Source: Macrostomum lignano (taxonomy: Eukaryota). From it: a stretch of DNA of 64,000 bases. Position numbers and translations under genes: made by a program. The DNA is taken from the NCBI GenBank assembly GCA_002269645.1, contig NIVC01002806.1, positions 1 through 64,000 of the forward strand, read 5' to 3'. Below, one piece after another: positions 1-29,445 of the stretch; position 1 is the stretch's first letter; the number at the start of each line of letters is the position of its first letter. A model generated the notes under the pieces. It saw only the letters and a list, made by a program, of their open reading frames with translations. It did not search any database and was not told the origin of the DNA.

Positions 1-991
1 AGTGAATGACCGCGTGGGGGATTTAGGGTTAAAGGCCTGAGATAAAAAGTAATAGTCACCGGAGTCGGAGGTAAAATGTCTGTCTATTTTATGTACATCA
101 AGGCTGAAGTATGGATCTGTAGCTCTTCTTTTGGTGTCTTTCTCTAGCTCTCCAGGTAGATATAAAAAGCGTAGAAACTCAGAGTTTGTCAGTATGTATG
201 GTGATTCAACTCCTGGAAGCTTAGGGTAGTTCGAGGTGTGTTTTGTGTTGTGTGTGTTGTGTGGGGTTGTCGTGTTGTTGTCTGTTCTATGAGATGCCTT
301 AAGTTCGACAGTGTCTTGTTTAATTGCATGGGATGGTTTCAATCCAGTCATGCGTGTGACTTCATTGTTCAGTTGCTCTATAACAGGGGAGTCTTTCTGT
401 CCACTTGGTATAGTACTGCCCCGCACTCAGTTTGAGTTCTTGCGCTGTCTGCTTAGTGAATAGTCTCTTGGCTAGAATTAGATTGAATCTTTCCACAAAA
501 GCCTGGTCTCTGTGCAAGTTTGTTCTGCCATAGCGAATCTCTGTGTTTTTCTTTTCCATAAGGGATTTCACTACACCCATGAATTCCTTACCCGGGTCGG
601 TCATAAAGATTTGGGGGTATGTGAGCGGAGAGTTTTTATAAATATCTTGCAGTGCGCTGGCAACAACCTCTGACTTCTTCGTCTTGAGTGGGCGAGCTTC
701 CTTATATCTGGAAGCAATGTCAATAATTGTAAGAGCATACTTGTAGCCTGAGTCGTTGGGGAGAAACAAAAGATCTGCTTGGTGCGCTTCATTAGGTTTA
801 TAAATACTGAAATGGGGCCTTTCAAATTTTACTGGTGGGAAATAGACTTGAAAGACAGCCTGCTTAGAGAGCCATTTTTCTACTGTAGCTTTTGGCTCTT
901 TACTCAGCTCCATGAGTTTACTAACAGCATTTTTGCCTACAAAGAATCCTTTGTCGCTGTAGTAGAGTTTTTTAAGTTTCTGATCTGTCAT
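1..991 (-). pseudogene. Polinton-type retroviral-like integrase (rve), copy A; frameshifted near 385 and running off the window start
   Basis: ORF 362..991 has the DDE triad context HQADLLF / FMTDPGKEF / VERFN. A 2-nt deletion versus copy B (CCC ACT GTT becomes CCC TGT) shifts the frame after WTERLP. Confidence 0.9.
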
Positions 992-1021
992 TTATTTAAA
1001 AAGAAAATTTTAAATAAAATA
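992..1021. promoter_or_regulatory. 30-bp AT-only-like divergent intergenic spacer between integrase and PLA2 start codons, with an 11-bp inverted repeat
   Basis: TTTATTTAAAA (991-1001) / TTTTAAATAAA (1008-1018). Each ATG is preceded by TTTTAAATAA on its own strand. The spacer is conserved at 9356-9385. Confidence 0.5.
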
Positions 1022-1333
1022 ATGCAGCGCTCTGGTGGTAAAATAGATTCACATGGACTGATAGAAAAGCTTCCTCATCCAAACAAAGGCTGGACACTTC
1101 CCGGCTATAAATATTGCGGGCCTTTGAATCCACTTAAAATACAGTTAGATAAAAACAATAATCCACATCCTGGGCATGAGCCTGTGAACGAGCTAGACTC
1201 TGTCTGCATGTGGCACGACGTTAAGTATAGAGATTTTCCTGAGGAGAAGAATCGCTGGGACAAAGAAATGCTCAGGAGACTCGACAATATAGGGGCTTCA
1301 AGCGGATTTCGTGAGTCGATTGCTCGAAATTAG
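1022..1333 (+). CDS. Parvovirus VP1u-type phospholipase A2 protein (PLA2X-like), copy A; C-terminus cut by a 1-nt deletion near 1328
   Basis: LPGYKYCGPLN Ca-binding loop and D..C.WHD..Y catalytic motif. Comparison with 9386..9886 shows the frame continues as LVKAVIFGKKKLGLGV if one base is restored. Confidence 0.85.
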   Translation: MQRSGGKIDSHGLIEKLPHPNKGWTLPGYKYCGPLNPLKIQLDKNNNPHPGHEPVNELDSVCMWHDVKYRDFPEEKNRWDKEMLRRLDNIGASSGFRESIARN

Positions 1334-1975
1334 TCAAGGCGGTTATTTTTGGTAAGAAAAAGCTGGGGTTGGGGGTCGCGGTTGTTTGGGGGCGGGCTTT
1401 GTGTTGCACACGCCAAGTAAAGAATTAGGAAGACTGCTGAAAGAGCTGGGGTTGAGAGAGCAGAATGATTCAAGCAAGAAAATTCAGCTGGATTAGCGGC
1501 TGTTTGGGAGAAGAGTTAAGTTTTCTGGCCTTCTGGCCTTCGCTTCTCTTCTCTCCACACAAGTGTACAGTCTTGAGCACACTGGTTTCGGTTACAATCT
1601 CTCTTTCCACCATGCCCTTCTCCTTCATACTCCTCACCTCGCGCTATGCTCTGTGTACAGAGAAGTCTCACGCCTCATGCTCTATCGTACACTGAGCTAT
1701 ATCGATTGTTTTTCCCTGCTTGACTCCAAGATTGTACAGTCTAGAATTTTCTGGAATTTTCTAGCTGTATAGCTGTATTTAAGCAAATGCAGAAACACTC
1801 GGGTTGATTCTCCCCGCATATGCCATCAACTGCGACTGAGAAACGACGACTGCAGGAACTTAAGCACGCTGAAAGTGATCTAAGAAATAGTCCGCCAAAC
1901 TAGAAGATTAGAAGACAAGAAGATTTAGAAAATGGAAGTCGAGTGGAATCTTCATTTGACAGATAAGCAAGGCCT

Positions 1976-2608
1976 TTGTGCCATGCTACAAAGAGTTTTA
2001 CAGGATATTCCGTCACATCTACAAGCAAGAAGAAGAGAGGAACTAACCACCTTTTTCGGTCTAGAAACTGGCGACCTACCAATCGAGTTTTTCGCCATGG
2101 CCCTGATGATATCGCCGCAGCGAATGAAGCGCAAAATGTGAGTAGCGAAGAGAAGAAGGCGGCGGCTCTGCAGAAGAAGATGGCGGATCTGCAGATATTC
2201 AGGGAGAAGTTGTACGCATCCCGCGTAACACTAGCTGATCAGCTGATGGACGCTGTTGATCACCAGCTTCCATCTGGCGAGCAGAACATCATCACTAGGG
2301 TGAAGGCGGCTCTAGCAAAATACAAGAAGACTCAAATTGGAGGTCTACATTGGATTCTCGAAGTTGGGCGGCTGCTAAAAACTTATCGCACCGAGAACTT
2401 TGGACAAGATGTTAAAGTGCGGTTCGCCCATTTGTGTAAAAATGTAAACATCCAGGAATCAACTGGCTATTTGTACATTCGTCTGTACAAACTGTCTGTT
2501 ACCTACCCAGGCTTAAGACAGGTGTCAATGCCAATTAGGGAACTAAACTCTAAGATGAAGTTTCTAGAAGAAATTTTGGCCAGTGATCCTGCGTGGAAAG
2601 TTGTGTAA
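1976..2608 (+). CDS. Unknown helical protein, possible HTH-type DNA-binding protein; true 5' end uncertain (possibly frameshifted from ATG 1820)
   Basis: 210-aa ORF. The C-terminal half aligns by eye with ORF 10556..11194 (8/32 identities ungapped around RLYKL...YPGL...P...MK) and occupies the same slot. Confidence 0.6.
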   Translation: MCHATKSFTGYSVTSTSKKKRGTNHLFRSRNWRPTNRVFRHGPDDIAAANEAQNVSSEEKKAAALQKKMADLQIFREKLYASRVTLADQLMDAVDHQLPSGEQNIITRVKAALAKYKKTQIGGLHWILEVGRLLKTYRTENFGQDVKVRFAHLCKNVNIQESTGYLYIRLYKLSVTYPGLRQVSMPIRELNSKMKFLEEILASDPAWKVV

Positions 2609-2635
2609 TTTTTTAATTCAGTTCATTTAGAATTT

Positions 2636-3057
2636 TTCTAACGCGTTAGAATTTCAAAGAGAAGATTCAACAACTGGAGACAGCCGATTGGTTAAGTAGA
2701 GGAAGGTAGCAATTTTCTCAGTACTGTGTGCAACTCAGTCGGTGGGTTTTAAATTCTAACGCTGTTAGAAATTTCTATGTGAAAAGTTTCCCGCAAGATA
2801 AGCTTGGGCACACCAAATTTTCACATAGAAAATTCTAACGCGTTAGAGAATCTAGCTGCTGGCTCAAAGGAACGCTAGGTTGGCTCTGTATGGTTAAATA
2901 GAGGGGGTAGAAATTTTCTAACGCCGTTAGAATTTTCTATGTGAAAAGCTTCCCGCAAGATAAACTTGGGCACACCAAATTTTCACATAGAAAATTCTAA
3001 CGCGTTAGAGAATCTAGCTGCTGGCTCAAAGGAACGCTAGGCTGCATGGCTCTGTAT
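2636..3057. repeat. 162-bp tandem duplication with five TTCTAACG(N)CGTTAGA palindromes and nested inverted repeats
   Basis: Palindromes start at 2636 (perfect 16-mer TTCTAACGCGTTAGAA), 2754, 2833, 2916 and 2995; the period is 162 bp. A TTCTATGTGAAAA...TTTTCACATAGAA stem occurs twice. Confidence 0.9.
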
Positions 3058-3206
3058 GTTGTTGAAGAATTCTAACTCAGATCCTACATAGTGTCTGTTT
3101 TTTCTACCATTTTTGATACTCTTGTAATAGTTAATACATATCCTATCAGCTGTGCAACCGTTAATAAATATATAATTCTTACTAATGAATAATAAAATTG
3201 TTTATA

Positions 3207-3725
3207 TTTTTTCAATGGGTAAGGACCTTGCGCTGATGATTTAAAGTCTTAGGGATCTGGTTTCACGTTGCGGATTGAATGTGGGGAGAAGAATGCAGAT
3301 TATTTTCTGATTGTTTCGAAGATGCTATGGGTGGATGTCAGTGGATTATGTCAGTGTCAGTGAGCATAACAGGTGTCAGTGGACCCATATTCCCATATTC
3401 TGTCAGTCATAATATGGATGGATTTAATGGGATTAAAGTTTTCGGATCAAGTGCAACCCCTCCCCTTTTTCAAGATTCTGTCGGGGATAATATAGATAGA
3501 TTTAATGGGATTATGGAGGACGTTTTGTGAGCGGGTGCGACCCCCTTTTTTTCTTATTCTGTCAGGGATAATATGGAAGGATTTAGGTGGATTATGGAAG
3601 ACGTTTTGTTAGCAGGTGCGACCCCCCTTTTTTTCTGATTCTGTCAGGGATAATATGGATGGATTTAGGTGGATTATGGAGGAGGTGAAAAATTTTGTCC
3701 CAGAAGCCCCCTCATGCCTTCTACT
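3207..3725. repeat. Terminal region of Polinton-like copy A, with four ~80-bp subterminal repeats
   Basis: ATTCTGTC..GGATAATATGG units at ~3396, 3474, 3555 and 3637. Direct copy at ~12262-12773. Ends CTTCTACT. Confidence 0.8.
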
Positions 3726-3855
3726 GAGGAAAATCAGGCAGAGTGTCCCTCATAAATATTCCTCTAAAGTTTGGGATTTCCAGTTCGTTAGCCAAATCTT
3801 CAAGAAAGTTATTTGTCGTCATTTTTTATGAGGTTTATTAAACTTTCTCTCAAAC

Positions 3856-6800
3856 CTAAACCCAACTTCCACCTCCTAAACCTAACCTCCAGTGCCCGAA
3901 CGGTAGACTGTTAATATTGTCATCAAAAATGAATCTCTTGTTATCTGCACCTGACAGTCCAATCTTCTTTTGCTGAATTGTGTGAATAATATGGTTTTTA
4001 GATTGTAGCTTTGAGAACTCATGTGATGTCTTTTTGTTGCAATTCAAGGCGTCTCTGTATTCAGCTTCATTAATTTCCTTCCTAACCACACGTTTCGGAA
4101 TTCCCTTTGATTTTTTTATTGGGTCTGACGACTCACATTTTATAAAATAGGACTTTGCTCTCAACCCAATGAATTCAGTGATTATGTCACCAGCAATCTC
4201 GTCCTTCATTTTCCCAATCACTTTCTTGTTAGTAGCGTCAAACACTTGATCACCATTCTGTGTCCTGAAAGATTTATCATACTCAGACAAGTCAAACAAA
4301 TCTTTTTGCTGCAGCATGTCCTGATAAATGTCTTCGTTTGAATGTCCATAATAAAACTGTCTGTGTCAGTGTACAAGAGTTTCATTTTATCCTTGTACTG
4401 CTGCTTCATGCCATAGAAGAACTGGTACATCAGACGTTTTGATTCATCGAGAACAGTGACACCTGTATAGATCGGCTTGCGCAGCGTCACCTTGGTTTTG
4501 TAAAATATGATCACACCAAGTAGCTATTAAAGATATGGAGTTCTTTGAATGTTGGCTTTGACATATTTGCCTGAATAACAGCAGGCTCTGATGAGGTAAC
4601 AAGTTTCAGGTTTGTTCTTTTCCGCTCATTTTCAAGAGTCTTGCCATAGACGGAGTTGTTGGCTAACTTAAAGAGGTTCTTGTCAAAGTCGTTGGTTGCT
4701 TTGGTCCTAAACTGGGTGTTCTTATCAATGTAGGGTTTCATCCACGCTTCCTCTGTAAATGTAAGAGCCCTGTGAACTTTGGTGACCCTGCAACCAGTGA
4801 GATAAAATACTGAAGCAGTTTGTAATGGATTTTGTAACGTGTCTTGTTGTTTAGATTCTGTGTTAGTTTCTCTGTATGTTCTTTTTCTGTTCCTGACAGG
4901 TGCCAAGTTCCATTATTATCATTGGGAGTTTCGATTATTTTCGGGCACTTGATGTTCTCTGGGAAGGGTGGAAAGTCAGAGAAATAGTCGTGAAGCTCTG
5001 GTGGAATGTAAACATCAACCTCATAAATGGCAGCCAATGAAAAGTCCTGTTTGAATTCTGATGAGGGTAGCCATCGAAAATCTCTAACTGGAAGATCTTG
5101 ACTCATCGCCCACCCGTAGAGATTATTAGCGTCCAAGTAAGTAATGTAGTTTGAGGGCTGCTCCTTATTGTAAGATCCAATGTAGGGGTTGTTTGCTTTT
5201 GCATACCTGTTAACGCAAATTGAGATCCCCCTCGCTTTGACGATTCGACAAAATTGTACATGTCAATGTCTGTAAGAAGTTCAATGTACCAATCTGGATC
5301 TTGATCCCATTTCATTTTAAGCAAAGATTCCCAGCTAGTGGCAGGGAGAGACACATAATGTGCTGGATCGAGGCCATATGCTGTGTACCAGGTGCATCTG
5401 AAGGTTTCAAACACATCAGCCAGCAGAAACACATCTGTGAAGAGGTAAAGCAGGTGATACTGGAAGAAGTTTTGACAATTAAAGTAATTATAGACATGCT
5501 TCGCGTGCTCATAGTCTTTGTCAGAGATTCCAGAGTCTGTTAGCTTTGAAAAGAACTTCTCCTGTGGTGGTAAACCTTCTTCAAATACGTGATACCCAGT
5601 AATATTTTCATAGGGGTAGAAGCCTTTGGTTCTCAGGAGTTTAAATGATTCATCAGTGTTGTTAATTTTACTTGCAAACATCTTTGTATATGTACATTGT
5701 TCATCTTTTAGATTCTTGCTTAGTTCGTCTAGACTGGCAGCTAGAAATTGATATGAATCCTTCAGTCTTATTTTACCTGTACCCGAATTATCCTGTTTAA
5801 TATCAACACACTTAAACTTCTCCTTGTTCTCTGCGATGCAATCAAGGTGTATGTCTGGAATCATGCCGATTTTTTCAACTATTAAATGCATGTCATAGTT
5901 CTTTGCGTTGTGACAAAATATCGTTAGATCATGAATGTTCGATTTTAGCTTTAGATTACAGGTGTTATGCGCTGCACCTCTAAATTTCCCAGTAAAGTGG
6001 CAGTGGTCCCTAACGGTGGGGTTTTTAATATTAGTGCAAGTTAAATGTTTCCTGCAGATGTGGCAATGAGTTGCTGATAGGAAATTGCTTTCATCCTCCT
6101 CAGTCATCATTATTGGAACAGGTTGAAGGGTGCTAATCACTTTTTGCAACTCTAACATTCTGGCAATAAACTGCTCCACACACTGCTCTCCAAAGAAATA
6201 ATTATACTCAACAAGTCCTTTTGTATTAATAAAGGCATATGCTACTGAATTGGGGATATGTTTTTGAGTTTGAGTTTGTTTTGAGTTGGAGTTTGTTTTT
6301 GAGTTGGAGTTTGTTTTTGAGTTTCTGGCACGATTGAGCATTCGAAATCAGCATATACAACAAATGGGAGCTTCTCCATCTTGTGATAGTTCTTAAACCG
6401 GAGATACTTCTCTTCAGCTGAAGGAAGAGAGCAGTTTGTCGGGTGATCCTCGCATGATAATTCATGCTCTGCTAGTTTTTCAAAGCGTTCAGGTCCACTG
6501 TAATGCTTAAGGCACAAGCGGCAGATGGCAACAGCCTCGTGATGATTATTCAACTGCTTGTGTATGAGTCTTGAAAGATCTTTAATCCAAACATAGTGAG
6601 CCTCCTCTAGTAAATTACCAATCACTAGAAGATCCACTTCAGTCCGCCTTTTCCCCTCGGGATCTAAAACGTCTTTGCTACATCTGACCGGTTGAACTTT
6701 CTCAGTTTTCTCACTCCACTCAAAGACTGTGATTCTAATTTTGTTATTAAACACTTCTTCTAGCTTTGGGATCTGAGAGATTGCCAAGCCTCCTTTGTCA

Positions 6801-7732
6801 AACCTGATTCCCTTCTTTTCGCATTCAATGAGATAGTAGTTAAAATAATTTTGATAATTTGAGGTTCTTTCGGGGTGGTGAGGGACACTAAAAAGTGCAG
6901 AAAGAACTGCCCATAGAGCACAGCAATTGTCTTTATTTTTAACATTTATGCAAGCTTTTTTACCGGCTAGCTTATGCGGGAGCTCTATATAAGAGGAGGC
7001 TTTAAGTGGGTCATATTTCATGACCCTGACAGTCGCTCTTTGAATCCCTCCCACGACCCATCCGGAACCTCTGGATGTAAACGCTTCAATTTTCTTATTG
7101 ACATCTTGAAGGAAAGGATCCAGTGTGTCTGTTGGGGTGAATGGCTTTGCCTTTGTTGTCATGTAATACTCGAGATGCTCAGTGGGTTTTGCAGGCATAT
7201 AAAACGCAATCTTGAATGATATCTGTAGTTTAAAGGTCTTGCGTGTTTTGAGTGTGTGATCAACAACTGATTGGATGCTGTCTTTATAGTCGTAGATGTT
7301 TGCGGTGGTACCGTTGGTGCCGTTAATTGGGATTGTGTACTCTATGTAATGTTCTGTAAACTTCGTCTGTGCAAAATTAATCTCTTCAGTGGCAAGCTCC
7401 GACTCTTTTAAATGGATTAATTGCTCTAATTTCTCTTGTTCCTGCTTATTTTGTGGGTACTTTGCTTTTTCACCAGTGAGAGTTTCATATTTGTTAACTA
7501 AGTTGCGACTCCTCTCTTGGTGTTCCTTTGCAGAATTTTTTATAGGCGCATACTGGTTTGATTCTAATTGATTGATGATTTCCAACTGTTTTTCATAGCT
7601 TCCCAGGTGACCAGGGTCGGTGTTGAACTTTTGTTTGCATGCTTCTCTTAGTGAATTACTTTTGTCTTGAAATGAGACGCCTTTTGAAAAATATTTGTTG
7701 ACTAAATCTCTTGCTGGATTAGCTTTTGGCAT
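3856..7732 (-). pseudogene. Protein-primed family B DNA polymerase (Polinton type) with embedded endonuclease VII-like domain, split by five 1-nt deletions
   Basis: ExoI YADFE, ExoII HNAKNYDMHLI, ExoIII YLFTDVFLLADVFE, motif A DANNLYGWAM, motif B KLANNSVYGKT, motif C YTDTDS, and CHIC...RDHCHFTGKFRGAAHNTCN. Frameshifts near 6280, 5226, 4794, 4513 and 4335; no in-frame stops once these are corrected. Start taken at ATG 7732 (MPKANP). Confidence 0.93.
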
Positions 7733-7855
7733 TTTTCTCGAAAATATAAAAAAAATTTTGAGGGTGACCACCCTGATAGAAAAGTTGAACTGTTTCTACA
7801 TCCTATAAGTAGTATTAGGTTTATGAAGCTGGATAAAGTGGGGTTTTAAACCTCA

Positions 7856-8302
7856 TCACATCCGCATTATTGTAAACCCAGCATTGTGCAGTGTCATGAT
7901 GGCTTTGACAATGTCAGACTTGCTTATAGAATTTTCATTCTCACAATCATCACGATCGGGGCAGCCCTCTCCTGCCTTAATTGTTATACCTTTGTCTCTT
8001 GCAATCTTTTGCAATTCCAGCTGGTGGGCTCTATCATTCCCAGCTTTAACAGCAGTTGCTACACCTCCAGCTACACCACCTGCGGCACTTACAGCGCCTG
8101 CAATGATCGGAATAAGAGCTGCTAATGGTAGGATTCCTCCTGACTTTTCATCTGTGATGCTGTGTCTTTGTTCATTACACTGAACTATTTGCTGCGTGGG
8201 ATCGATTTTTACTTTGACACCTTTAATTGATATAATACCTGGTTTCTTTGATTCAATGATATTATTGAGTTTATTGAGGGTTCTAGTTTCAATCTTTGTC
8301 AT
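7856..8302 (-). CDS. Adenovirus pX (Mu precursor)-like small protein
   Basis: SGGILPLAALIPIIAGAVSAAGGVAGGVA resembles the hydrophobic C-terminal segment of adenovirus pX (RGGILPLLIPLIAAAIGAVPGIA). Intact 148-aa ORF between PolB and integrase. Confidence 0.7.
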   Translation of the reverse strand: MTKIETRTLNKLNNIIESKKPGIISIKGVKVKIDPTQQIVQCNEQRHSITDEKSGGILPLAALIPIIAGAVSAAGGVAGGVATAVKAGNDRAHQLELQKIARDKGITIKAGEGCPDRDDCENENSISKSDIVKAIMTLHNAGFTIMRM

Positions 8303-8318
8303 TTTTTATTTTAATATT

Positions 8319-9355
8319 TTAATTAATTTCTGTGTCAGCTGGTATCACTAGGAGTTCAGCTCTAGTGAATGACCGCGTGGGGGATTTAGGGTTAAAGGCT
8401 TGAGATAAAAAGTAATAGTCACCGGAGTCGGAGGTAAAATGTCTGTCTATTTTATGCACATCAAGGCTGAAGTATGGATCTGTAGCTCTTCTTTTGGTGT
8501 CCTTCTCTAGCTCTCCAGGTAGATATAAAAAGCGTAGAAACTCAGAGTTTGTCAGTATGTATGGTGATTCAACTCCTGGAAGCTTAGGGTAGTTCGAGGT
8601 GTGTTTTGTGTTGTGCGTGTTGTGTGGGGTTGTCGTGTTGTTGTCTGTTCTATGAGATGCCTTAAGTTCGACAGTGTCTTGTTTAATTGCATGGGACGGT
8701 TTCAATCCAGTCATACGTGTGACTTCATTGTTCAGTTGCTCTATAACAGTGGGGAGCCGGTCTGTCCACTTGGTATAGTACTGACCACTTTTTAGTTTCA
8801 GCTCTTCAGCTGTCTGCTTAGTGAATAGTCTCTTGGCTAGAGTTAGATTGAATCTTTCCACAAAAGCCTGGTCTCTGTGGAGCTCAGTTCTGCCATAGCG
8901 AATCTCTGTGTTTTTCTTTTCCATAAGGGATTTCACTGCACCCATGAATTCCTTACCCGGGTCGGTCATAAAGATTTGGGGGTATGTGAGCGGAGAGTTT
9001 TTATAAATATCTTGCAGTGCGCTGGCAACAACCTCTGACTTCTTCGTCTTGAGTGGGCGAGCTTCCTTATATCTGGAGCAACGTCAATAATTGTAAGAGC
9101 ATACTTGTAGCCTGAGTCGTTGGGGAGAAACAAAAGATCTGCTTGGTGCGCTTCATTAGGTTTATAAATACTGAAATGGGGCCTTTCAAATTTTACTGGT
9201 GGGAAATAGACTTGAAAGACAGCCTGCTTAGAGAGCCATTTTTCTACTGTAGCTTTTGGCTCCTTACTCAGCTCCATGAGTTTACTAACGGCATTTTTGC
9301 CTACAAAGAATCCTTTGTCGCTGTAGTAGAGTTTTTTAAGTTTCTGATCTGTCAT
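8319..9355 (-). pseudogene. Polinton-type integrase (rve), copy B; 1-nt deletion near 9077
   Basis: ORFs 8966..9355 and 8319..8969 join into a full integrase when the base present in copy A (GGAAGC versus GGAGC) is restored. Confidence 0.9.
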
Positions 9356-9385
9356 TTATTTAAAAAGAAAATTTTAAATAAAATA

Positions 9386-9886
9386 ATGCAGCGCTCTGGT
9401 GGTAAGTTAGATTCACATGGACTGATAGAAAAGCTTCCTCATCCAAACAAAGGCTGGACACTTCCCGGCTATAAATATTGCGGGCCTTTGAATCCACTTG
9501 AAATACAGCTGGATGGAAACAACAACCCAAATCCTGGGCATGAGCCTGTGAATGAGCTAGACTCTGTCTGCATGTGGCATGACGTTAAATATAGAGATTT
9601 TCCTGAGGAGAAGAATCGTTGGGACAAAGAAATGCTTAAGAGACTAGACAATATAGGGGCTTCAAGCGGATTTCGTGAGTCGATCGCTCGGAAGCTAGTT
9701 AAAGCTGTTATTTTTAGTAAGACAAAACTGGGGTTGGGGGTGTACGCCGAGGGCGGGTGTTTGGGGAGAGAGGGCGAGTGCACGGGGAGAGAGGGCGAAC
9801 GCACGGGAGCAGAGTTTATTTTGTGCGCTCCTAACAATGAATTGGGAAGACTGCTGAAAGAGCTGGGGGTAGAAAGGGGCGCTTGA
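9386..9886 (+). CDS. Parvovirus VP1u-type phospholipase A2 protein (PLA2X-like), copy B, intact (166 aa)
   Basis: Same YKYCGP and WHD..Y motifs; C-terminal KTKLGLG. ATG 9386 lies inside ORF 9143..9886. Confidence 0.88.
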   Translation: MQRSGGKLDSHGLIEKLPHPNKGWTLPGYKYCGPLNPLEIQLDGNNNPNPGHEPVNELDSVCMWHDVKYRDFPEEKNRWDKEMLKRLDNIGASSGFRESIARKLVKAVIFSKTKLGLGVYAEGGCLGREGECTGREGERTGAEFILCAPNNELGRLLKELGVERGA

Positions 9887-10555
9887 ATCGGGAAGGGCAT
9901 CAGCAAGTGTGGATTTGAGTAAGTACAGTTTTTTATTCCCTAAAGAGTTGCGCACAAGAGAGATTCTCATTCTCCAGAGAGCTAAGAGCAGAAAATAAAA
10001 AGTCAACCGCTTCGCCGCCATTAGCATGCATGGACTGTGTATGTTTGATTGATATTGATTATTTGCCTAATTGTGAGGCCAGTTGGCCCGCCTAGTTGGC
10101 CTCGGCCCGCCGATTTGGCCTCGGAATGTGGCCCGCCTTGTTGGTCTATACGGTATGAAGATATGGGGGGGGGGTAGAGAGAGGCGTTTGAGTCGGGAAG
10201 GGTTTAACTATTATTCTCAGCCCTGGCCGAACGCAACAGCTGCATTTGAAAAGTTGAGAAGCAGAGAGAGGTTATGTGGTTGATCGACTGCTATTTGCTT
10301 AAGGAGCGTAGCCTTTTAATCGATTTTGCGAATGTACAACTTCCACGCATGCTTTCCTTTCCGCTTTGGCAACCCCAATCAACCAGTCAGTTCATAGCAC
10401 GAAAGACTACCTAGTGTGGAGACGGCTTTCCTTTCCAATTGCCAAAATATTGGCGCGGCGCAGCAACCACTACCACCTCAAACCCTACATGACGGTTTTT
10501 AAGTAAAGGCGGAAGCCAGCCAGCCCTCTTCACTCAATTCCTATTAGAAAACGCA

Positions 10556-11194
10556 ATGGCTGAAAGAATTACAGTTAGAACCGCTCGACTTAACGCATTT
10601 GTGAACGATTTGATTAATTTAACACCTTTAGAGCAGAGAGATGGACTCCAACAATTGTTTGAAAATTTCAAAGAAGAGGAAATACAGCACGATTTGGCTC
10701 GCATGGAAGGACAAACCCAACGCGATATTTCCACCTACGAAGCACGAGTAGCTGCTGTTTTCCAGCGCCTTCGTGCTTCGTATGGAGTCGAAGTTCAAGC
10801 GCCAACAAGGGAGCTATCAGTTATCGAGGAAAGTATGCACGCGTTGAACTTTCGTCATCTACCCACTGTTCTACCCACTGTACAGAACATGCTGGTGGAA
10901 TTATTTCAGCATGAGAATTTTTATGATAAGCGCACATTAATTGTGTCATTTTACATCGGCTCCATCATTCACCGGCTCAAACGTACACTAAAGTCGGTTC
11001 GGAATATAATTCGACGGCTTAATCTACAAGTATCGAGGCAGACTTTGGACAAGAAGTTGAGAGTGTACGACTTATTGACAGAATTTCCGGCCTTACAACG
11101 CTGCGCCGTACCAGTTAGCTTCGTTCTGGAAAATATGAAGCTCATTCGGGACGAGGTTCGCTACCAGGCGGATGCGGCGATGTGGAGACAGTGA
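10556..11194 (+). CDS. Unknown 212-aa helical protein, distant homolog of 1976..2608, possible DNA-binding protein
   Basis: Clean ATG-to-stop ORF with protein-like composition. Shares the C-terminal pattern G..I/L ... R.Y.L...[YF]P.L.....P.......MK...W with the copy A ORF. Confidence 0.7.
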   Translation: MAERITVRTARLNAFVNDLINLTPLEQRDGLQQLFENFKEEEIQHDLARMEGQTQRDISTYEARVAAVFQRLRASYGVEVQAPTRELSVIEESMHALNFRHLPTVLPTVQNMLVELFQHENFYDKRTLIVSFYIGSIIHRLKRTLKSVRNIIRRLNLQVSRQTLDKKLRVYDLLTEFPALQRCAVPVSFVLENMKLIRDEVRYQADAAMWRQ

Positions 11195-11213
11195 CGGTTA
11201 CGGGTTATGACTT

Positions 11214-11606
11214 AGCCAATTTTAAATTGAGACGATCGCAATATCAGTCTTGAGTTATTTTTAGTAACAAGTCATTTCCACTCTCTCTTTAGTATAATCT
11301 TATCAACCAATGAGAACGCTTAGAATGGCTACCAGTGGGGCCAGCCAATTTTAAATACGACCGTATTAGCAGTCTTGAGTTATTTTTAGTAACAAGTCAT
11401 TTCCACTCTCTCTTTAGTATAATCTTATCAACCAATGAGAACGCTTAGAATGGCTACCAGTGGGGCCAGCCAATTTTAAATTGACACGATCGCAATATCT
11501 ATCTTGAGTTATTTTTAGTAACAAGTCATTTCCACTCTCTCTTTAGTATAATCTTATCAACCAATGAGAACGCTTAGAATGGCTACCAGTGGGGCCATTT
11601 TTAAAT
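11214..11606. repeat. Three tandem ~125-129-bp direct repeats immediately downstream of ORF 10556..11194
   Basis: AGCCAATTTTAAA at 11214, 11343 and 11468. The core TCTTGAGTTATTTTTAGTAACAAG...CCAGTGGGGCC is near-identical in all three; unrelated to the copy A array. Confidence 0.92.
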
Positions 11607-11986
11607 GTTAGTACTTTCACACGCCTAACGCAATTGCCTAATTATTTCTGCAAAGTTATAGTAGCTGTGACGATGTCGTTAGCATCTTAAATTTTTAGTT
11701 TCTATCTGAGTTTTTATTACTTCAAATTATTGTAGTTGATTAATTTGCAGGTTTCCCAGCTATTAATTCAATGTAATTTATTTAGAAAAAAATGTACTTG
11801 AAGTTTTATTTATTTCAGTCCAAGTTGTTATTACTTTTTTGATAGACATCTTGACAATTTAAATTGTTACCTCGCGCTCGTTTTTTGTACTCTCCTCAAC
11901 TCGGCATTTTGTCTCGTACCATGCGTGTCAACACTACTAATAACTGAACTAGCTAACCAATAAATAAATAACTAATAAATAAACAA

Positions 11987-12241
11987 CTAATAATTAATTA
12001 ATCGCTGACTACATCTCGAACTCGCTACGTCACAGTAGCTGTCGTAATCTTTTACGTAGGTTACTCCATACTTATGAAACCAGTGTCTTTGGAGAGCTAG
12101 ATTAATATTAGGGACATTGATATCAACGTCGGGCCAATATTTTCTCATGTACTCGCTGCATTCTAGTTTGCATCGGTACTTACTCTTGTAATTAGGCTCG
12201 TGCGCTTTGTAATAAGAACCTGGAGAGACAACTGGAAACAT
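11987..12241 (-). CDS. Hypothetical 84-aa Tyr/Cys-rich protein next to the terminal region of copy B
   Basis: ATG-initiated ORF starting at the edge of the terminal homology block; no recognisable motif; absent from copy A. Confidence 0.35.
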   Translation of the reverse strand: MFPVVSPGSYYKAHEPNYKSKYRCKLECSEYMRKYWPDVDINVPNINLALQRHWFHKYGVTYVKDYDSYCDVASSRCSQRLINY

Positions 12242-12261
12242 TTTTAGAGAAAATTTAATTT

Positions 12262-12773
12262 TTTTTTCAAAGGGTAAGGACCCTGGGTTAGGGGGTTTAA
12301 AGTTTTAGGGATCTGGTTTCATGTTGCGAATTGAATGTGGGGAGAAGAATGCATATTTTTTTCTGATTGTTTCGAAGATGCTATGGATGGATGTCGGTGT
12401 CAGTGAGCATAACAGGTATCAGTGGACACCTGCTCTGATTCTGTCAGGGATAATATGGATGGATTTAGGTGGATTATGTTCGAAGTTTTCGGAGCAAGTG
12501 CGGCCCCTCCCCTTTTTCATGATTCTTTCGGGGATAATATGGATGGATTTAATGGGATTATGGAGGACGTTTTGTGAGCGGGTGCGACCCCCCTTTTTTT
12601 CTTATTCTGTCAGGGATAATATGGAAGGATTTAGGTGGATTATGGAGGACGTTTTGTTAGCGAGTGCGACCCCCCTTTTTTTCTGATTCTGTCAGGGATA
12701 ATATGGATGGATTTAGGTGGATTATGGAGGAGGTGAAAAATTTTGTCCCAGAAGCCCCCTCATGCCTTCTACT
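12262..12773. repeat. Terminal region of Polinton-like copy B, with four ~82-bp subterminal repeats
   Basis: Units at ~12437, 12521, 12603 and 12685. Direct repeat of ~3207-3725. Ends CTTCTACT. Confidence 0.8.
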
Positions 12774-18217: not shown

Positions 18218-19416
18218 CCCACTGGATGTTGGATTAGCGCAACTCACCCCAGCAGGGGCTGTCCTGTACGCCAAGACAGATTGATGCCCTAAGCGGAGTG
18301 CCGCAGCGCAGAATGCAAACACAGTCGAAATGGATGCCAGGCGATGAAGCATGTGACATTTTGTCCTGCCGGGCAGCCTGCCTCATCCAGTTTCTTTAGC
18401 GGCAGGCAGTCAGGTTACGCGCCGGCTGTGGCGGCTCTGCAGGAACCTTCTTGTCTATCGCTCTGTAACCGCGGCGGGTGATAGAGATCCCCGCTGCAAC
18501 ACTGTGCCCCTCTGCCTACCAAAAAATCCCCAGGAAATTTTCCCCATTCCAGCCCGACTGGATTTTCTACCGCGACTCGCCCCGCCCTGACTGACTGATT
18601 GCGATGCAGAAAGTTCCTCGGCCCCCGCCCCTCCCCCCGGCTGCTGCGGCGGTCCCAGAGAAGCTGAAGGAAATCCAAGGCGCGTTCAAGTGCCGGCCGG
18701 CCACTCGGGGGCGCAGAGAGAACAAAATCCCGGGGATAATTCTGTTCTGCCGCCCCCCCCCCTCCCAGCTTCTCCTCCCCTCCCCGCGCCGCCGGCCTCA
18801 GTAATTACCGAGCCGGAGTGAAGGGGCCGCCGGCAGTTAAGGGAGAAATCTCCCTCTAGCCAGCCAGAGGAAGGGGGAGCAATTTCTCCCAGACCAGACC
18901 AGTCGCTCTCTGCCCCCGCCTCGTCCACTTGGCCGGTGACCCCCGTTCCCCCGTCACCTGATATCGGCGATATATGACTCGCCAGCTTCAAGTCAATGAA
19001 GCGCGTCCCTCAATTACTGGCCAATTACCCCCGGACGCCCGGGTCTGCGGCCCCCCGCTAAGCGCTACCTTGCTTGAGCTGCATCCAAGCCCAGCTTAGC
19101 CGCGTGTAAAAAGAATCCTCAGCATCCTTGCCTGCGCTCCCAGCCGCAAACTGGACTGGCTAAAAGTCAGCCGTCACAAAAAAGCCGGGCAGCTCAGGGC
19201 ATTGATTTCCCCTCCCCAGCGCTGCCGCTTCTTCAACTGGACAAAAATCTCCGGCTGACAGCTTGAAAGCCGCGGCTGCGACCTGCATGGCAGGCCATGA
19301 AAACGGAGTCGAATAGGAGCCAAGGCTGTTCGTTTCATCCAGTTGAAAACTTTTGACAGCCAAACATGACGAATGACCGCCGATCGAACAGCTTCGTTTG
19401 CACTTCCTCTGCGCAG

Positions 19417-22400
19417 ATGGCGGCGGACTGGTGGCTCTGCTGCCTCCTGCTGATTGCAGCGGCGGCGGCGGCGGCCGCGGCCGCGGAGCTGAGTGACTGC
19501 CAAACGGAGCGCCGGCACAGTCAACTGGGCGACAGCGACTGGCGGGACGGCGTCGACGCTGAACTGAGCGGCGCCGAGGACACGTTGGTGTGCGGCCGGC
19601 TGGGCCCCCCCACGGCGGAGCTGCCCGCGGCAGGCTTCGTCTCCCTTCGAGTGCGCGGCGGCCAGCTGCGGGATCTTGACGACCTGCTGGCCCGGCTGCC
19701 CGACTCTGCCCGGCTGCGGGAGCTCGTCGTTGCCGGCGGCAACATCCGCCGGCTGGTGGTCACGCCGCTGAATCGACGTCGACGGCCGGCCTGGAGTCGC
19801 CTGCGGCGCCTCGACCTCGTCGACAACCGCGTCGCCACTATCGAGCCGGACTATTTCTCCGCCTTCCCGGACCTCGCCGGCCTCCGGCTGAGCGGCAACC
19901 GACTGCGCACGCTGGACGCGGCAACGGCTTGGCCAGCCGGGCTGCTCGACCTCCGCCTGGACGGCTGCCAGCTGGCCTCGCTCGACGCCGACTTCTTTGC
20001 GAGCCTGCCGCCGCGGCTCCGACGGTTGGATCTAGCGAGAAACCGGCTCGACCGGCTGCCCGACCTTGACGACGCTGGCGGAAGTGAAACCGGAAGTGAA
20101 ATTGAAAGTCAAAGCGCTACCGGAAGCAGGCCCCCAGAGATGCTGTCGGAGCTGGACCTGTCGGACAACCTGTTCACCTCCGTGCCATCGGGGCTCGTGC
20201 GAAGCCTTCATCGCCGAATCGATCGGCTTCGCATGGACGACAGTCGGCGCCTGTTGCGCCTGGCGCCGGGCGACCTTCGGTTCGGCGCCGCCGACTCCGC
20301 CACCTCGGTACTGCGGGTGTCGCTGCAGCGCTCCGGCTTGCGAGTGGTCGACGCTGGCGTCACCAACTGGTCGACGCTGCTGGAGCTGGACCTCAGCGGC
20401 AGCCGCGACCTCGTTTTCCTGCATCCCGATGCTGTTGGCGGTGGCGCCAGCGGTGGCGGCTTTGAAAACAACACCTCAAATCGCCTTCTCCGACTGGAGG
20501 ACTGCGGCCTTCGCATCTTTGCGGCCGCCGAGTCGGCTGCCGGCTCCCGGCTGCTCAGCGTCGGCCTGGCCGGAAATCCCCTCTGGTGCGTCTGCGACAA
20601 CGCCTGGATCGGCCGGCAGTTGCGGGCACGAGAGTTCGGCCAGGCCATCCGGGTCCGGTTCCTGCGGCCCGATGAGCTTCGCTGCATCCGCTGCGGAGCC
20701 GGACAGGCGTGTCCGGCTGACGGGGCCACCGTCAGAATTCTCAACTGGACAGGTGAGCTGATGTGATCTTGAGCTTCCTGGATTTGATGTTGAATTCCCC
20801 TGAAGATTTGATGCTGAATACCCCTGTAGATTTGATGTTGAATTCCCCTGTAGATTTGATGTTGAATTCCCATACAGATTTGATGTTGAATTCCCCTGCA
20901 GATTTGATGTTGAATTCCCCTGCAGATTTGATGTTGAATTCCCCTGCAGATTTGATGTTGAATTCCCCTGCAGATTTGATGTTGAATTCCCCTGTAGATT
21001 TGATGTTGAATTCCCCTGCAGATTTGATGTTGAATTCCCCTGCAGATTTGATGTTGAATTCCCCTGTAGATTTGATGCTGAATTCCCCTGTAGATTTGAT
21101 GTTGAATTCCCCTGTAGATTTGATGTTGAATTCCCCTGTAGATTTGATGTTGAATTCCCCTGTAGATTTGATGTTGAATTCCCCTGTAGATTTGATGCTG
21201 AATTCCCCTGTAGATTTGATGTTGAATTCCCCTGTAGATTTGATGTTGAATTCCCCTGTAGATTTGATGTTGAAGTCCCCCACCCATTCGAGGTTGAATT
21301 CCCCAACCCATCTGAGGTTGAATTCCCCAACCCATCTGAGATTGAATTCCCCAACCCATCAACTTTAAACTTTGAAAACACCAGCTGGCTGCTGCAGGAA
21401 GATGACCTGCAAATCAGCAGAATCTCACTTGATGCTTGCTGCTCCAAGAAAATCACTGAAAGCTTTTTGCTTTCGGGAGAGGAGCGCCCCACCCCCTCTT
21501 CCCGATCGATGAGAGCCGCAGCTGACTGCAGCTCGGCGAGGCGCTGGAGTGCTTTGAGACCGGGACTCAAGGACTGGGATGCGGGTCCGGCTAGAGCAGA
21601 AATCCATTTAGGAGTTGCTCAGTGCATCTCCGCCCCCCCCCCAAGGTAAGCCAGGACCGATTCTTCTCGTTTCTCCACAGCAAAGGGTCTTCATTAGCAG
21701 CCACCCCTGCCCATTGAGTCGATGCTATGCAAGGGGGGGGGGGCTTCCCTCAGCCCGCCCTTCTGCATGTCAGTTTTGCCAAGAAAAAAAGAGAAACAGC
21801 AAAAACCCGTCGGGCTTCTGTCCGCCTCCGTTACTTAAGCGACGCTTATTCAAGATGTGGCTGCTTGAGTAAAAGTGCTCTCGCGTCATCGATGCGCCCG
21901 AGCATGAGTTGGCTGGACTTGAGTTGGCTCACCTGTTGCCACCGTGGGAACCGGCGTTGAGTCCTGCTGATGGATGCGTGGGAATTTATGAACTAATCAG
22001 CTGGTGCTATTCGAATGTATCCGATTGAGAACTGCTCGAGCTGCTCAGTCCCGATGTACCAATGCATCCATCGCTTCACGCGTCTCAGATCCAACTCTAT
22101 CCACAGACCCAACTCTATCCACACAGGCCCATCTCTATCCACAGACTCATCTCTATCCACAGACTCATCTCTATCCACATACCCATCTCTATCCACAGGC
22201 CCATCTCTATCCACAGACCCATCTCTATCCACAGGCCCATCTCTATCCACAGACCCATCTCTATCCACAGGCCCATCTCTATCCACAGGCCCATCTCTAT
22301 CCACAGGCCCATCTCTATCCACAGGCCCATCTCTATCCACAGGCCCATCTCTATCCACAGGCTCATCTCTATCCACAGGCCCATCTCTATCCACAGGCCC

Positions 22401-25073
22401 ATCTCTATCCACAGACTCATCTCTATCCACATACCCATCTCTATCCACAGGCCCATCTCTATCCACAGACCCATCTCTATCCACAGACCCATCTCTATCC
22501 ACAGGCCCATCTCTATCCACAGGCCCATCTCTATCCACAGGCCCATCTCTATCCACAGGCCCATCTCTATCCACAGGCTCATCTCTATCCACAGGCCCAT
22601 CTCTATCCACACAGGCCCATCTCTATCCACAGACTCATCTCTATCCACAGACTCATCTCTATCCACATACCCATCTCTATCCACAGGCCCATCTCTATCC
22701 ACAGACCCATCTCTATCCACAGGCCCATCTCTATCCACAGACCCATCTCTATCCACAGGCCCATCTCTATCCACAGGCCCATCTCTATCCACAGGCCCAT
22801 CTCTATCCACAGGCCCATCTCTATCCACAGGCCCATCTCTATCCACAGGCTCATCTCTATCCACAGGCCCATCTCTATCCACAGGCCCATCTCTATCCAC
22901 AGACCCATCTCTATCCACAGGCCCATCTCTATCCACAGGCCCATCTCTATCCACAGGCCCATCTCTATCCACAGACCCATCTCTATCCACAGGCCCATCT
23001 CTATCCACAGACCCATCTCTATCCACAGGCCCATCTGTATCCACAGGCCCATCTCAAGTTTCCCAATCCCCACCTCCCGCAGACGCAGCGGACTCGCTGG
23101 GCTGTCCGCCGCGCCTCTTCCATCCGCTCTCGCCGTCTCGGACGCTGCATCTGGGCGCTGGCGACGCCGTCCGACTCGAATGTCTGGCCTCCGGACGGCC
23201 GCGCCCGGACATTCGCTGGACGGTATCGCCTCTGCTAGCGCAGCCGCGGCTTCATCAGCGCCGCTGGCACCTCATCGACGGTGGCAGCCGGCTGGAGCTC
23301 ACAGACGCCAAAATTTCGGACAGCGGCCGGTTTGCCTGCTCGGCCGAGAACTCGGCGGGTGGAGCGGCGCTGGCCTACCGCCTGATCGTCCACGCCAGGT
23401 CGCTGCGCCTCCGCCCGCTGGGCGCCACTGCGGAGACCCTGACGGTAGGGTTCGCCGGCCGCGATGCAGAAAGCGTCGCTCAGCACTACGTGGTGGCGTG
23501 GAGGCAGGTGGGTTGCAGTGTTTTACCAAGGACTACTCAAGAAGGACGGGACACCTTTTCCGATAAAATACACTACGGAGATAGGAAGTTTTCATTCTTT
23601 CAGAACAGAAATTTCCTATTGCTTTCGATAGGAGGCAGACCCAATGTTCATATTTTAATACGTTGTGCCTTTCTTATTTAAAAATGAAAACTTTCTAACT
23701 TCTATAGCGTATTTTTCGGAAAAGCCTGCCTCCTAAAATTATACAAGAAACGAGATTTCCCATCCTTCTACTTGGGTAGTCCCTGTGTTTTGTTTCAACA
23801 AATTTTCCATTTATTTCTACTTAGAGTAACGCGATTAGCAAATTCTCAGCAAAGGAATTGAATGAGGGAAGAAGCAAGGATGAAGGGGTAGGAAGGAAGG
23901 AGTGTCGCTTTAAAAATCGATCGCTGCCCAGGTCTCCTCGCACGGCGTCCCACACGCTGACGGCGGCTTCACGAAGTGGCGGCACATCCGGCACGGCTGG
24001 CACGCCCTGACGGTCTTCGGTCTCCAGCCGGGCCGGCACTACCAAGTCTGTCTGCTGCACGCGGCAGCTGTGACTGGATTGGATGATGAAGCTTCTTTGC
24101 TGCTACCAACCCCAGCCAAGTCGAAGCACGCCGCTGTGCAGGCCGCGTTGCCTGACGGTCGATGCGTCGCAATGCTCACCCGGCACCTGGAGGCTGGCGG
24201 CGACGCCAGTACCAGCCGAGCCAGCTTGCAGCGGTTGTACGGACATGGCATTTACAGGTGAGACTTCAGCTGATCTCATTTGCCTCTCTGTCTCATAGTT
24301 CTTCCCTCCCCCGCTTATTGACTGAGTTGTAAAATGTCTAACCATGATGCATGCCCTTTTCTCTTCGCTGATTGGCTGATCCCAAAAATACCTTTACTTT
24401 CGTCTCTGGCCCCTTTCTTTTCGCTGATTGGCTGATTAACATCATACAAATGTCTTCCCTTCAATTTCTGCCCCTTTCTTTTCGCTGATTGGCTAATTTA
24501 CGAGTACATCATAAAATGCCTTCCCTTCTATCTCTACCCCTTTCTTTTCGCTGATTGTCTGATCAATAAAAATTCCTTACCTTCCGTCCCTGTCCCTATT
24601 TCGCTGATTTGCATCATAAATATGTCTTCCCTTCTATCTCTGTCCCATTCTCTTTGCTGATTGGCTGATAAATAAAGTGCCTTCCGTTCCATGTCGCTGC
24701 CCCACTCTGATTAACTTCTGGCACACAAGCATTCAAACCGCCAGTTGCTCTCGCCCCTCTCAGACTGGCCCACCACAGCACAGTCTACGCCATGATGGGC
24801 CTGGCGTTCGGCCTGCTGTTCCTCTGCTGCCTGACGGCCCTCCTTTATCAGCGCAGCTGCAAGAAGCTCCGCCTGCACCGCGGCCAGTACCGCTATTCCA
24901 CGGTAGGCGTGCGGGACGCCGACGGCAGGAGCTCTGATGGCCGGGGCGGCGGCGGCGCGATGCAGCTGAAGGTGCTGTTCAGTGGGCCGTCTTTGCTGAC
25001 TGCAGCTGAGCGCGGCGGCTCACAGGTGAGCCTGCTGCGGCATGCGGATCCCGATCAGGGACTGCTAGACTAA
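19417..25073 (+). CDS. LRR-Ig-FN3 single-pass membrane protein (LIG family, LRRN/LRFN-like architecture), ~798 aa; exons 19417-20752, 23083-23507, 23932-24257, 24764-25073
   Basis: Signal peptide, LxxLxLxxN repeats, LRR-CT (GNPLWCVC), I-set Ig (LECLASGRP...W...DSGRFAC), FN3 (LQPGRHYQVCL), TM helix. All GT-AG junctions are phase-compatible (1,0,2). Confidence 0.9.
20781..21360. repeat. 24-bp intronic minisatellite (GATTTGATGTTGAATTCCCCTGTA)
   Basis: Directly visible in intron 1 of the LRR gene. Confidence 0.96.
22095..23053. repeat. 18-bp intronic minisatellite (ATCTCTATCCACAGGCCC) with recurring variant order
   Basis: Directly visible; ends ~30 bp before the exon 2 acceptor. Confidence 0.96.
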
Positions 25074-28557: not shown

Positions 28558-28598
<41 letters not shown>

Positions 28599-28627
28599 GC
28601 CAGGCAGACAGACAGACAGACAGACAT

Positions 28628-28658
<31 letters not shown>

Positions 28659-28785
28659 CTAAGATAGACAGACAGACAGACAGACGGACACTAAGACAGA
28701 CACACACTCACACACACACACACACACAGACAGACAGACAGACAGACAGCCAGGCAGACAGACAGACAGACAGACAGACAGACAC

Positions 28786-28816
<31 letters not shown>

Positions 28817-28939
28817 GGCAGAGTTGGCAGACAGACATACAGACAGACAGACAGACACTAAGATAGAAGACAGACAGACAGACAGACACTAAGACAGACA
28901 CACACTCACACACACACACACACACACACAGACACACAC

Positions 28940-28978
<39 letters not shown>

Positions 28979-28985
28979 GCCAGGC

Positions 28986-29034
<49 letters not shown>

Positions 29035-29084
29035 CTAAGATAGACAGACAGACAGACAGACGGACACTAAGACAGACACACACT

Positions 29085-29117
<33 letters not shown>

Positions 29118-29121
29118 ACAC

Positions 29122-29184
<63 letters not shown>

Positions 29185-29185
29185 C

Positions 29186-29220
<35 letters not shown>

Positions 29221-29398
29221 GCAGACAGACATACAGACAGACAGACAGACAGACAGACAGGCAGGCAGACAGACAGGCAGGCAGACATACAGACAGACAG
29301 GCAGACAGACAGACAGACAGACAGACAGACAGCAGACAGACATACAGACAGACAGACAGACAGACAGACAGCAGACAGACATACAGACAGACAGACAT

Positions 29399-29445
<47 letters not shown>

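What the first reader, a model, noticed from the sequence alone, without database searches (positions are those of the whole stretch)
1466..12261. Swappable 'orphan protein + own repeat array' cassette in two sister Polinton-like elements
Seen: the two copies are nearly identical in integrase, PLA2 and the terminal region, yet the DNA between PLA2 and the terminus (A ~1466-3206, B ~9890-12261) is unalignable. Each carries a ~210-aa ORF in the same slot and orientation. The two ORFs are remote homologs (IRLYKLSVTYPGLRQVSMPIRELNSKMKFLEE versus LRVYDLLTEFPALQRCAVPVSFVLENMKLIRD, 8/32 identical without gaps, with an upstream G..L/I motif and a terminal W). Each is followed directly by a different repeat array (162-bp duplication with five palindromes in A; three ~127-bp units in B). 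Inference: the pattern ILEVGRLL...S.GYLYIRLY recalls DUF3102/HTH-like DNA-binding modules, so this may be a matched protein/binding-site pair. It could act as an origin, partition, superinfection-exclusion or incompatibility module exchanged as a unit between endogenous viruses. I know of no description of such a system in Polintons.
Basis: partly seen in the sequence, partly recalled or inferred. Interest (0 to 1): 0.82.

Follow-up and report, generated by a model that had tools for sequence, protein, structure and literature searches.

The report
Swappable ParB-like gene-plus-palindrome Polinton module
Virus-like Polinton elements in a flatworm genome swap, near one end, versions of an unnamed gene predicted to fold like a bacterial chromosome-partition DNA binder, most versions followed by their own mirror-image DNA word, which likely lets each element type mark its own DNA; binding itself is untested.

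Summary
Largely real, and broader than reported. Element A is nested in B's protease gene. The slot between PLA2 and the terminal repeat is hypervariable: 22 of 40 PLA2-anchored copies carry a gene of one unnamed family (235 relatives elsewhere); 18 carry RING, another ORF or nothing. ORFs A and B are remote members; A is frameshifted in this copy. The model's best match is the Spo0J/ParB DNA-binding domain (Z 6.3, modest), without the ParB N-terminal domain. The conserved unit is a palindrome, not the array. Related proteins keep related palindromes (A 33/33, B 16/17, C 10/10, F 30/35), repeat number varies, and slot types recur on unrelated integrase-PLA2 backgrounds. One metagenomic homolog also has three perfect palindromes downstream. 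A heat-shock element precedes A but not B. Best reading: a type-specific protein/site pair, likely a parS-like self-marker for extrachromosomal copies; a stress-induced transcription switch is the main rival. B's site is imperfect, orphan palindromes exist, and binding is untested. This scan noted similar gene-plus-palindrome loci before, on other DNA of this genome.

The parts
1..991 (-). rve integrase of element A, in two frames, cut by the window start
   Evidence: PF00665
1022..1468 (+). PLA2-like gene of element A (frameshifted); left border of the variable slot
1744..1761 (.). Four-unit heat-shock-element consensus upstream of ORF A
   Evidence: 0 perfect three-unit matches in 77.6 kb of core element DNA
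1932..2608 (+). Slot gene type A (225 aa in most copies; frameshifted near 2100 here); predicted ParB-type DNA-binding domain at residues ~112-221
2636..3010 (.). Five A-type palindromes TTCTAAC-n2/3-GTTAGA at 2636, 2754, 2833, 2916, 2995; last four in a 162-bp duplication (2754-3058)
   Evidence: present behind 33 of 33 A genes
3207..3725 (.). Terminal repeat of element A with 82-bp subterminal repeats; element end at 3725
3726..3822 (-). 5' remnant of element B's protease gene, interrupted by element A
   Evidence: target-site duplication in C1684; Peptidase_C5 match of a sister copy, below cut-off
3856..7732 (-). Protein-primed PolB of element B, in several frames
   Evidence: PF03175
7856..8302 (-). 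pX-like core protein gene
   Evidence: PF05829
8319..9355 (-). Integrase of element B, in two frames
9386..9886 (+). PLA2-like gene of element B
   Evidence: PF08398
9887..10555 (.). Upstream slot segment with three 19-bp repeats (10084-10147); also found in front of A-type genes, so not part of the cognate pair; no heat-shock element
10556..11194 (+). Slot gene type B, 212 aa, same family as A
11214..11597 (.). Three 125-129-bp units, each with an imperfect palindrome TGGCTAC-n4-GGGGCCA (11326, 11451, 11580); a 55%-identical relative keeps a perfect GCTAC-n4-GTAGC
12262..12773 (.). Terminal repeat of element B; element end at 12773

Best explanation
The slot beside the Polinton terminal repeat holds exchangeable versions of one gene family whose product is predicted to have a ParB-type DNA-binding domain and likely binds, probably as a dimer, the lineage-specific palindrome next to its gene, which would mark the element's own extrachromosomal copies for preferential retention in the nucleus, like parS/ParB or the 2-micron STB locus. 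Shown: family membership, swapping, gene-motif co-segregation, motif conservation where flanks are unalignable. Predicted: the fold. Inferred: dimerisation, binding, the retention role, and the idea that site-only copies exploit the protein and so drive new specificities. I put the protein/site pairing alone at about 0.75-0.8; the number below is for pairing plus this role.
For: Family: 235 proteins at E<=1e-3; A and B linked. Fold: pLDDT 86.6; best of 48,161 chains is Spo0J (Z 6.3, rmsd 3.6, 90 residues, model 112-221), with ParB-parS (Z 4.8), KorB-operator (4.6) and SopB-DNA (4.0) also listed; Spo0J stands 2 Z above the next row. Sites: matching motif within 450 bp downstream in A 33/33, A2 11/12, A3 4/6, B 16/17, C 10/10, F 30/35, with no cross-clade match except the A pattern in two A2 copies. 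A, A2 and A3 (19-42% identical in the domain; A3 on the opposite strand) share little downstream but the AACGCGTT palindrome. Arm changes are symmetric (CTAAC/GTTAG vs CCAAC/GTTGG; CCTGA/TCAGG vs CCTGG/CCAGG) while F spacers vary. 10 of 16 lineages have a strong palindrome within 200 bp of the stop, vs 5 of 222 core tiles. Out-of-sample: metagenomic homolog P0014 has three perfect 22-bp palindromes (core TTCCTCACGCGTGAGGAA) about 250 bp apart downstream; 1 of 200 shuffles gave any such palindrome. Swapping: 14 slot types need 41 changes on an 81-element INT/PLA2 tree (minimum 13); A- and B-bearing cores can be 99.5% identical. dN<dS in 4 of 5 within-type pairs, dS saturated between types. Position-independent, variable-number arrays and no sites at core promoters suit an anchor.
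Against: No binding data. Z 6.3 is below the tool's caution level for helical folds; Raf1, a Rubisco chaperone, scores 5.6-6.0; Foldseek found nothing at E<=1e-3. The motif patterns were drawn from the same loci, and close linkage alone gives co-segregation within a type. B and C palindromes are not significant against shuffles (13-24 of 60); D has no listed motif downstream (0/10; its repeats lie upstream); E matched 2/5 and A4 1/2. Core tiles are mostly coding, an imperfect control. 18 of 40 PLA2-anchored copies lack the gene, and several still carry palindromic repeats. A heat-shock element precedes 23/33 A and 14/34 F genes, which suits a switch better than a maintenance factor. No ParA or CTPase domain was seen. 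Only one external lineage could be examined. Iteration on this genome's loci alone did not join A and B, and the pool had been selected with a profile containing both.
Confidence: 0.45

Rival explanations
1. Same protein/site pair, but acting in transcription: a stress-induced immediate-early regulator that binds its array as an enhancer (baculovirus hr/IE1-like, recalled) or as negative feedback.
For: Four-unit heat-shock consensus before A (1744-1761), in 23/33 A, 14/34 F, 2/6 A3 and 1/2 A4 copies and in RING slots; none in 77.6 kb of core DNA. KorB, a ParB-type transcription regulator (recalled), is among the fold hits.
Against: No such element before B (0/17), A2 (0/12), D (0/9), E (0/5) or the external homolog; it belongs to a separately recombining promoter piece. 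Sites are not at core promoters.
Confidence: 0.25
2. Neutral association: a cargo gene of other function flanked by slippage-made repeats and hairpins that travel with it only because they are adjacent.
For: Palindromic repeats also occur in slots without the gene; copy number is unstable; B and C motifs are weak; the fold score is modest, with a non-DNA-binding Raf1 hit. A low-conservation cargo region next to a terminal repeat is known in nematode Mavericks (bioRxiv 10.1101/2022.07.12.499685, passages).
Against: Motif kept across deep lineages with unalignable flanks and in inverted genes, symmetric arm changes, and the same layout in an external homolog.
Confidence: 0.15
3. Packaging-specificity module: the protein recognises the array and recruits the A32 ATPase, like phage TerS/pac or adenovirus packaging repeats (both recalled).
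For: Subterminal position; the element encodes an A32 ATPase and a double-jelly-roll capsid; ParB-type HTH domains occur in phage ParB-terminase loci (PMC4738411, passages).
Against: Distance to the element end varies and arrays of inverted genes face inward; 18 of 40 copies lack the gene.
Confidence: 0.08
4. Phage-like immunity module: a type-specific repressor that keeps the element silent and excludes same-type incomers.
For: Many specificities in one genome; A inserted into B, a different type; swapping resembles lambdoid immunity regions (recalled).
Against: Sites lie 3' of the gene and not at core promoters; heat-shock promoters suggest induction; up to 33 same-type copies coexist. One nested pair is no test of exclusion.
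Confidence: 0.07

Closest known systems
ParB/Spo0J-parS and Noc-NBS; KorB, SopB (PMC7383237, passages)
   Same: Predicted helical DNA-binding domain overlays Spo0J 101-194; palindromic sites in several copies; specificity diversified within one protein family.
   Different: No N-terminal ParB domain or ParA seen; eukaryotic element; site directly beside the gene; binding untested; no significant sequence match to solved structures.
DUF3102 (PF11300)
   Same: Pfam family matched by most members (4 of 150, best E 2.2e-5).
   Different: Neither A nor B matches; the Pfam model finds nothing in this genome. A remote relative at most.
Polinton/Maverick (alpha-adintovirus-type) cargo region (PMC8502044; bioRxiv 10.1101/2022.07.12.499685; passages)
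   Same: PolB, rve integrase, PLA2, pX, A32 ATPase, protease, capsid; variable region between a terminal repeat and the integrase end.
   Different: Described cargo is proteases, kinases, oncoids or membrane-active proteins; no gene-plus-cognate-site pair appears in the passages read.
Yeast 2-micron Rep1/Rep2-STB (PMC6344848, start of abstract only); EBV EBNA1-FR and baculovirus IE1-hr (recalled)
   Same: Element-encoded protein with a repeated cis site on a nuclear replicon.
   Different: No homology tested or suggested; there the system is essential and fixed, here dispensable and polymorphic, with more than ten lineages in one genome.
Lambdoid immunity regions and TerS/pac modules (P22/lambda mosaicism in bioRxiv 10.64898/2026.10.13.758929, passages; the rest recalled)
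   Same: Specificity gene and its site exchanged together between otherwise near-identical genomes.
   Different: Sites are 3' of the gene, not at divergent promoters or inside the gene.

Membership tests
Polinton/Maverick | pPolB plus rve integrase | tested here: met
   PF03175 and PF00665
Polinton/Maverick | Capsid, A32 ATPase, adenoviral-type protease | tested here: met
   Sister copies: PF21738 and PF04665 above cut-off, PF00770 just below; outside this window except the protease remnant
Polinton/Maverick | Terminal inverted repeats and 6-bp target-site duplication (feature recalled) | tested here: met
   Both ends of element A in C1684 with a GAGGAA duplication
ParB/Spo0J family | Central HTH DNA-binding domain | tested here: inconclusive
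   Top hit Spo0J Z 6.3, rmsd 3.6, 90 aligned, three more ParB-type domains at Z 4.0-4.8; below the caution level for helical folds
ParB/Spo0J family | N-terminal ParB (CTP-binding) domain | tested here: not met
   N-terminal half is three helices, the last 39 residues long; no ParB Pfam family among the 25 listed for 150 members; Spo0J aligns only from its residue 101
ParB/Spo0J family | Dimer binding a palindromic site | not testable with these tools
ParABS partition system | Cognate ParA ATPase | not tested
   No dedicated search; the only ATPase seen in the element is A32-type
DUF3102 (PF11300) | Match above the Pfam gathering score | tested here: not met
   No match for A or B or in the genome; 4 of 150 relatives match at E<=0.1
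Repressor/immunity module | Operators at promoters of replication or structural genes | tested here: not met
   No clade motif in core loci L120-L128 except one AACGCGTT; degenerate sites would be missed
hr/oriP-like enhancer-origin | Array supports replication or enhancement with its protein | not testable with these tools
   Needs plasmid assays

The most novel reading that the evidence does not exclude
Animal Polintons carry a ParB-derived, CTPase-less partition/incompatibility system: more than ten protein-site specificities, shuffled between otherwise identical elements, by which each type privately tethers its episomes in dividing cells. Site-only cheater copies drive the diversification, and some types are switched on by host heat-shock factor.
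Probability: 0.25. Interest if true: 0.9.

Novelty: new variant of a known kind. Interest (0 to 1): 0.74.

Why it matters
How integrated Polintons are regulated and how their free copies persist or compete is largely open. This gives named, testable parts: a protein family, predicted sites for several lineages, and natural swaps. It would extend phage- and plasmid-style specificity modules to animal endogenous DNA viruses, and offers a natural series for studying protein-DNA co-evolution.

Tried and rejected
Word-index homolog searches found nothing for B or the small alignment, and 4 proteins for the large one. ESM Atlas gave only weak, unnamed or implausible look-alikes. B folded without an alignment was useless (pLDDT 37.5), so A and B models were not compared directly. 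Foldseek on PDB and viral libraries: no E<=1e-3. Sequence searches of solved structures: nothing significant. PHROGs: unnamed families, at most 5 of 150 members. Phage records: no match. DNA context of external homologs: none; only succeeded. Expression: no RNA holder is on record; contigs of four guessed-RNA runs cover ORF A and core genes alike and cannot rank them. Rejected: the repeat array as the unit (copy number varies); host-wide parS-like dispersal of the A site (79 exact sites, 41 of the 50 listed lie beside an A gene); palindromes being heat-shock elements (spacing out of register, by inspection); same-strand gene clusters as a host immunity locus (they lie among nested element pieces; not excluded). 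Earlier-findings look-up by sequence was blank.
Full report
Setting. Window 1-12773 holds parts of two Polinton/adintovirus-type elements (PolB, rve integrase, pX, PLA2). Sister copies supply capsid, A32 ATPase and protease. A protein identical to the open-frame A type is labelled Macrostomum lignano by a source. Element A ends at 3725 and sits inside B's protease gene; the duplicate contig C1684 shows both ends with a 6-bp duplication.

Observation. The shared and unalignable blocks and both arrays are as described. ORF A is frameshifted near 2100 in this copy; 19 of 24 near-identical copies have an open 226-codon frame. ORF B is 212 aa.

The slot. A PLA2 query gave 297 candidates, of which 40 were scored. 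Their slots hold type A (5), C (3), D (10), F (4), RING (4), another ORF (5) or no gene (9). Protein searches added B, A2, A3, A4, E and many F sublineages. On a tree of 560 INT/PLA2 columns from 81 elements, 14 slot types need 41 changes (minimum 13, shuffled mean 60.4); starred branches force at least 5 for A and 4 for B, and cores with A versus B reach 99.5% identity. Recombination inside the tree segment could add to this count. The upstream promoter piece recombines separately from gene plus downstream DNA.

The protein. A nine-sequence profile found 235 proteins at E<=1e-3 among 1.84 billion; none of the members of 20 clusters looked up has a name. A profile of 149 external hits scores A, B, C, D and E at 1e-16 or better and F at 1e-9 to 0.03, against 0.11 for the best shuffle. 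Iteration from A reaches B, and from B reaches A2/A3, with no decoy. That pool was preselected with both, and iteration on genomic loci alone did not join them. DUF3102 matches 4 of 150 members. The model of A has pLDDT 86.6 and is all-helical. Its best structural match is Spo0J (Z 6.3, rmsd 3.6, 90 residues), then Raf1 (5.6-6.0); ParB-parS, KorB and SopB DNA-binding domains score 4.0-4.8 (Spo0J again first). These scores are modest for a helical fold and Foldseek found nothing. There is no N-terminal ParB domain, so it may work like a ParB DNA-binding domain but is not filed as a ParB.

The sites. Among 131 distinct gene copies, the clade's motif lies within 450 bp downstream in A 33/33, A2 11/12, A3 4/6, A4 1/2 (and 0/1 distant), B 16/17, C 10/10, E 2/5, F 30/35, D 0/10. 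D has its repeats upstream in 9 of 10 loci. The patterns were read from these loci, so the counts show consistency, not independence. Stronger: A, A2 and A3 share little downstream except the AACGCGTT palindrome; F lineages keep CTG(G/A)-n4/5-(C/T)CAG with variable spacers and a symmetric arm change between F1 and F2; the presumed recognition helix is similar within clades and differs between them. Palindromes were reached by at most 3 of 60 shuffles in 13 of 19 rows, but not for B or C. B's candidate site is imperfect; a 55% relative keeps a perfect version. Array size is labile: 9 of 17 B copies have one site, and A2 ranges from 1 to 7.

Outside this genome. The one homolog whose DNA I could fetch (L216; L217 is 98.8% identical) has three perfect 22-bp palindromes downstream with an ACGCGT core, and a convergent ORF fragment with a sub-threshold chromodomain, which I read as a Polinton integrase end (recalled). 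This was an out-of-sample check, but n is one lineage.

Promoter. Following a lead from earlier scan notes, I found a four-unit heat-shock consensus at 1744-1761. It precedes 23/33 A, 14/34 F, 2/6 A3, 1/2 A4 and 1/10 C genes and RING cargo, but no B, A2, D or E gene. There is no perfect three-unit match in 77.6 kb of core DNA, though 10 occur in the other 51 kb of the window.

Mechanism. Shown: one family, swapping, motif association. Predicted: a ParB-type domain. Inferred: a dimer binds the neighbouring palindrome. Sites vary in number, side and distance from the end, are absent from core promoters and are not spread over host DNA. This fits a position-independent self-marker. I favour retention of extrachromosomal copies (0.45) over a stress-induced enhancer or feedback switch (0.25), neutral linkage (0.15), packaging (0.08) and immunity (0.07). 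The module is dispensable (18 of 40 copies lack it) and orphan palindromes exist; this may mean cheating in trans or may favour the neutral reading.

Literature. Nine searches listed no paper describing such a pair in Polintons. I read passages of PMC8502044, PMC7383237, PMC4738411, PMC10748475, bioRxiv 10.1101/2022.07.12.499685 and 10.64898/2026.10.13.758929; six terms had no hit in 10.64898/2026.06.19.733378; PMC6344848 was seen as a listing with the start of its abstract. No supplements were read; the unnamed 'Adintoc' families of PMC8502044 could include this protein. The scan's own earlier notes report similar gene-plus-palindrome loci elsewhere in this genome; they are not independent support.

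Verdict. A real, recurrent, exchangeable gene-plus-palindrome module with a plausible ParB-like binder; a new variant of a known kind of specificity module; function untested. Interest 0.74.

Noticed in passing
L014, L021, L033, L035 (slot): The same slot can hold a RING-finger gene (Pfam zf-C3HC4 for L014) behind a heat-shock element.
   Followed up: partly
L019, L022, L026, L027, L029; L083-L086: Two other orphan ORFs (about 143 and 181 aa) occupy or flank the slot.
   Followed up: no
L010-type slots; L036: Orphan palindromes: gene-less slots carry TCCGACA-n3-TGTCGGA (11 exact sites in the genome); L036 has an A2-type site without an A2 gene.
   Followed up: partly
G000:C273:217000-261000 and C1391:144000-154000: Decayed family genes of several types lie on one strand among element fragments.
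   Followed up: partly
L101-L106, L132: A2-type elements carry a piece of the minor capsid gene between slot and terminus, suggesting an extended terminal repeat; L115 and L150 have a family gene behind the capsid genes instead of PLA2.
   Followed up: partly
L031, L038, L039: Some F-type genes appear to have an intron, while L036 has one open frame; judged from sequence only.
   Followed up: no
L103 and L018, downstream of the arrays: A tRNA-like short element sits behind the A2 and A4 arrays (by eye).
   Followed up: no
window 25904-29907 (-): Exons resembling xylose isomerase (recalled resemblance) split by long microsatellites.
   Followed up: no
window 19366-23681 (+): LRR- and Ig-like host gene pieces interleaved with minisatellites.
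   Followed up: no
window 50654-63726: Four copies of 156-201-bp repeats 3-4 kb apart and an inverted pair about 8.2 kb apart.
   Followed up: no
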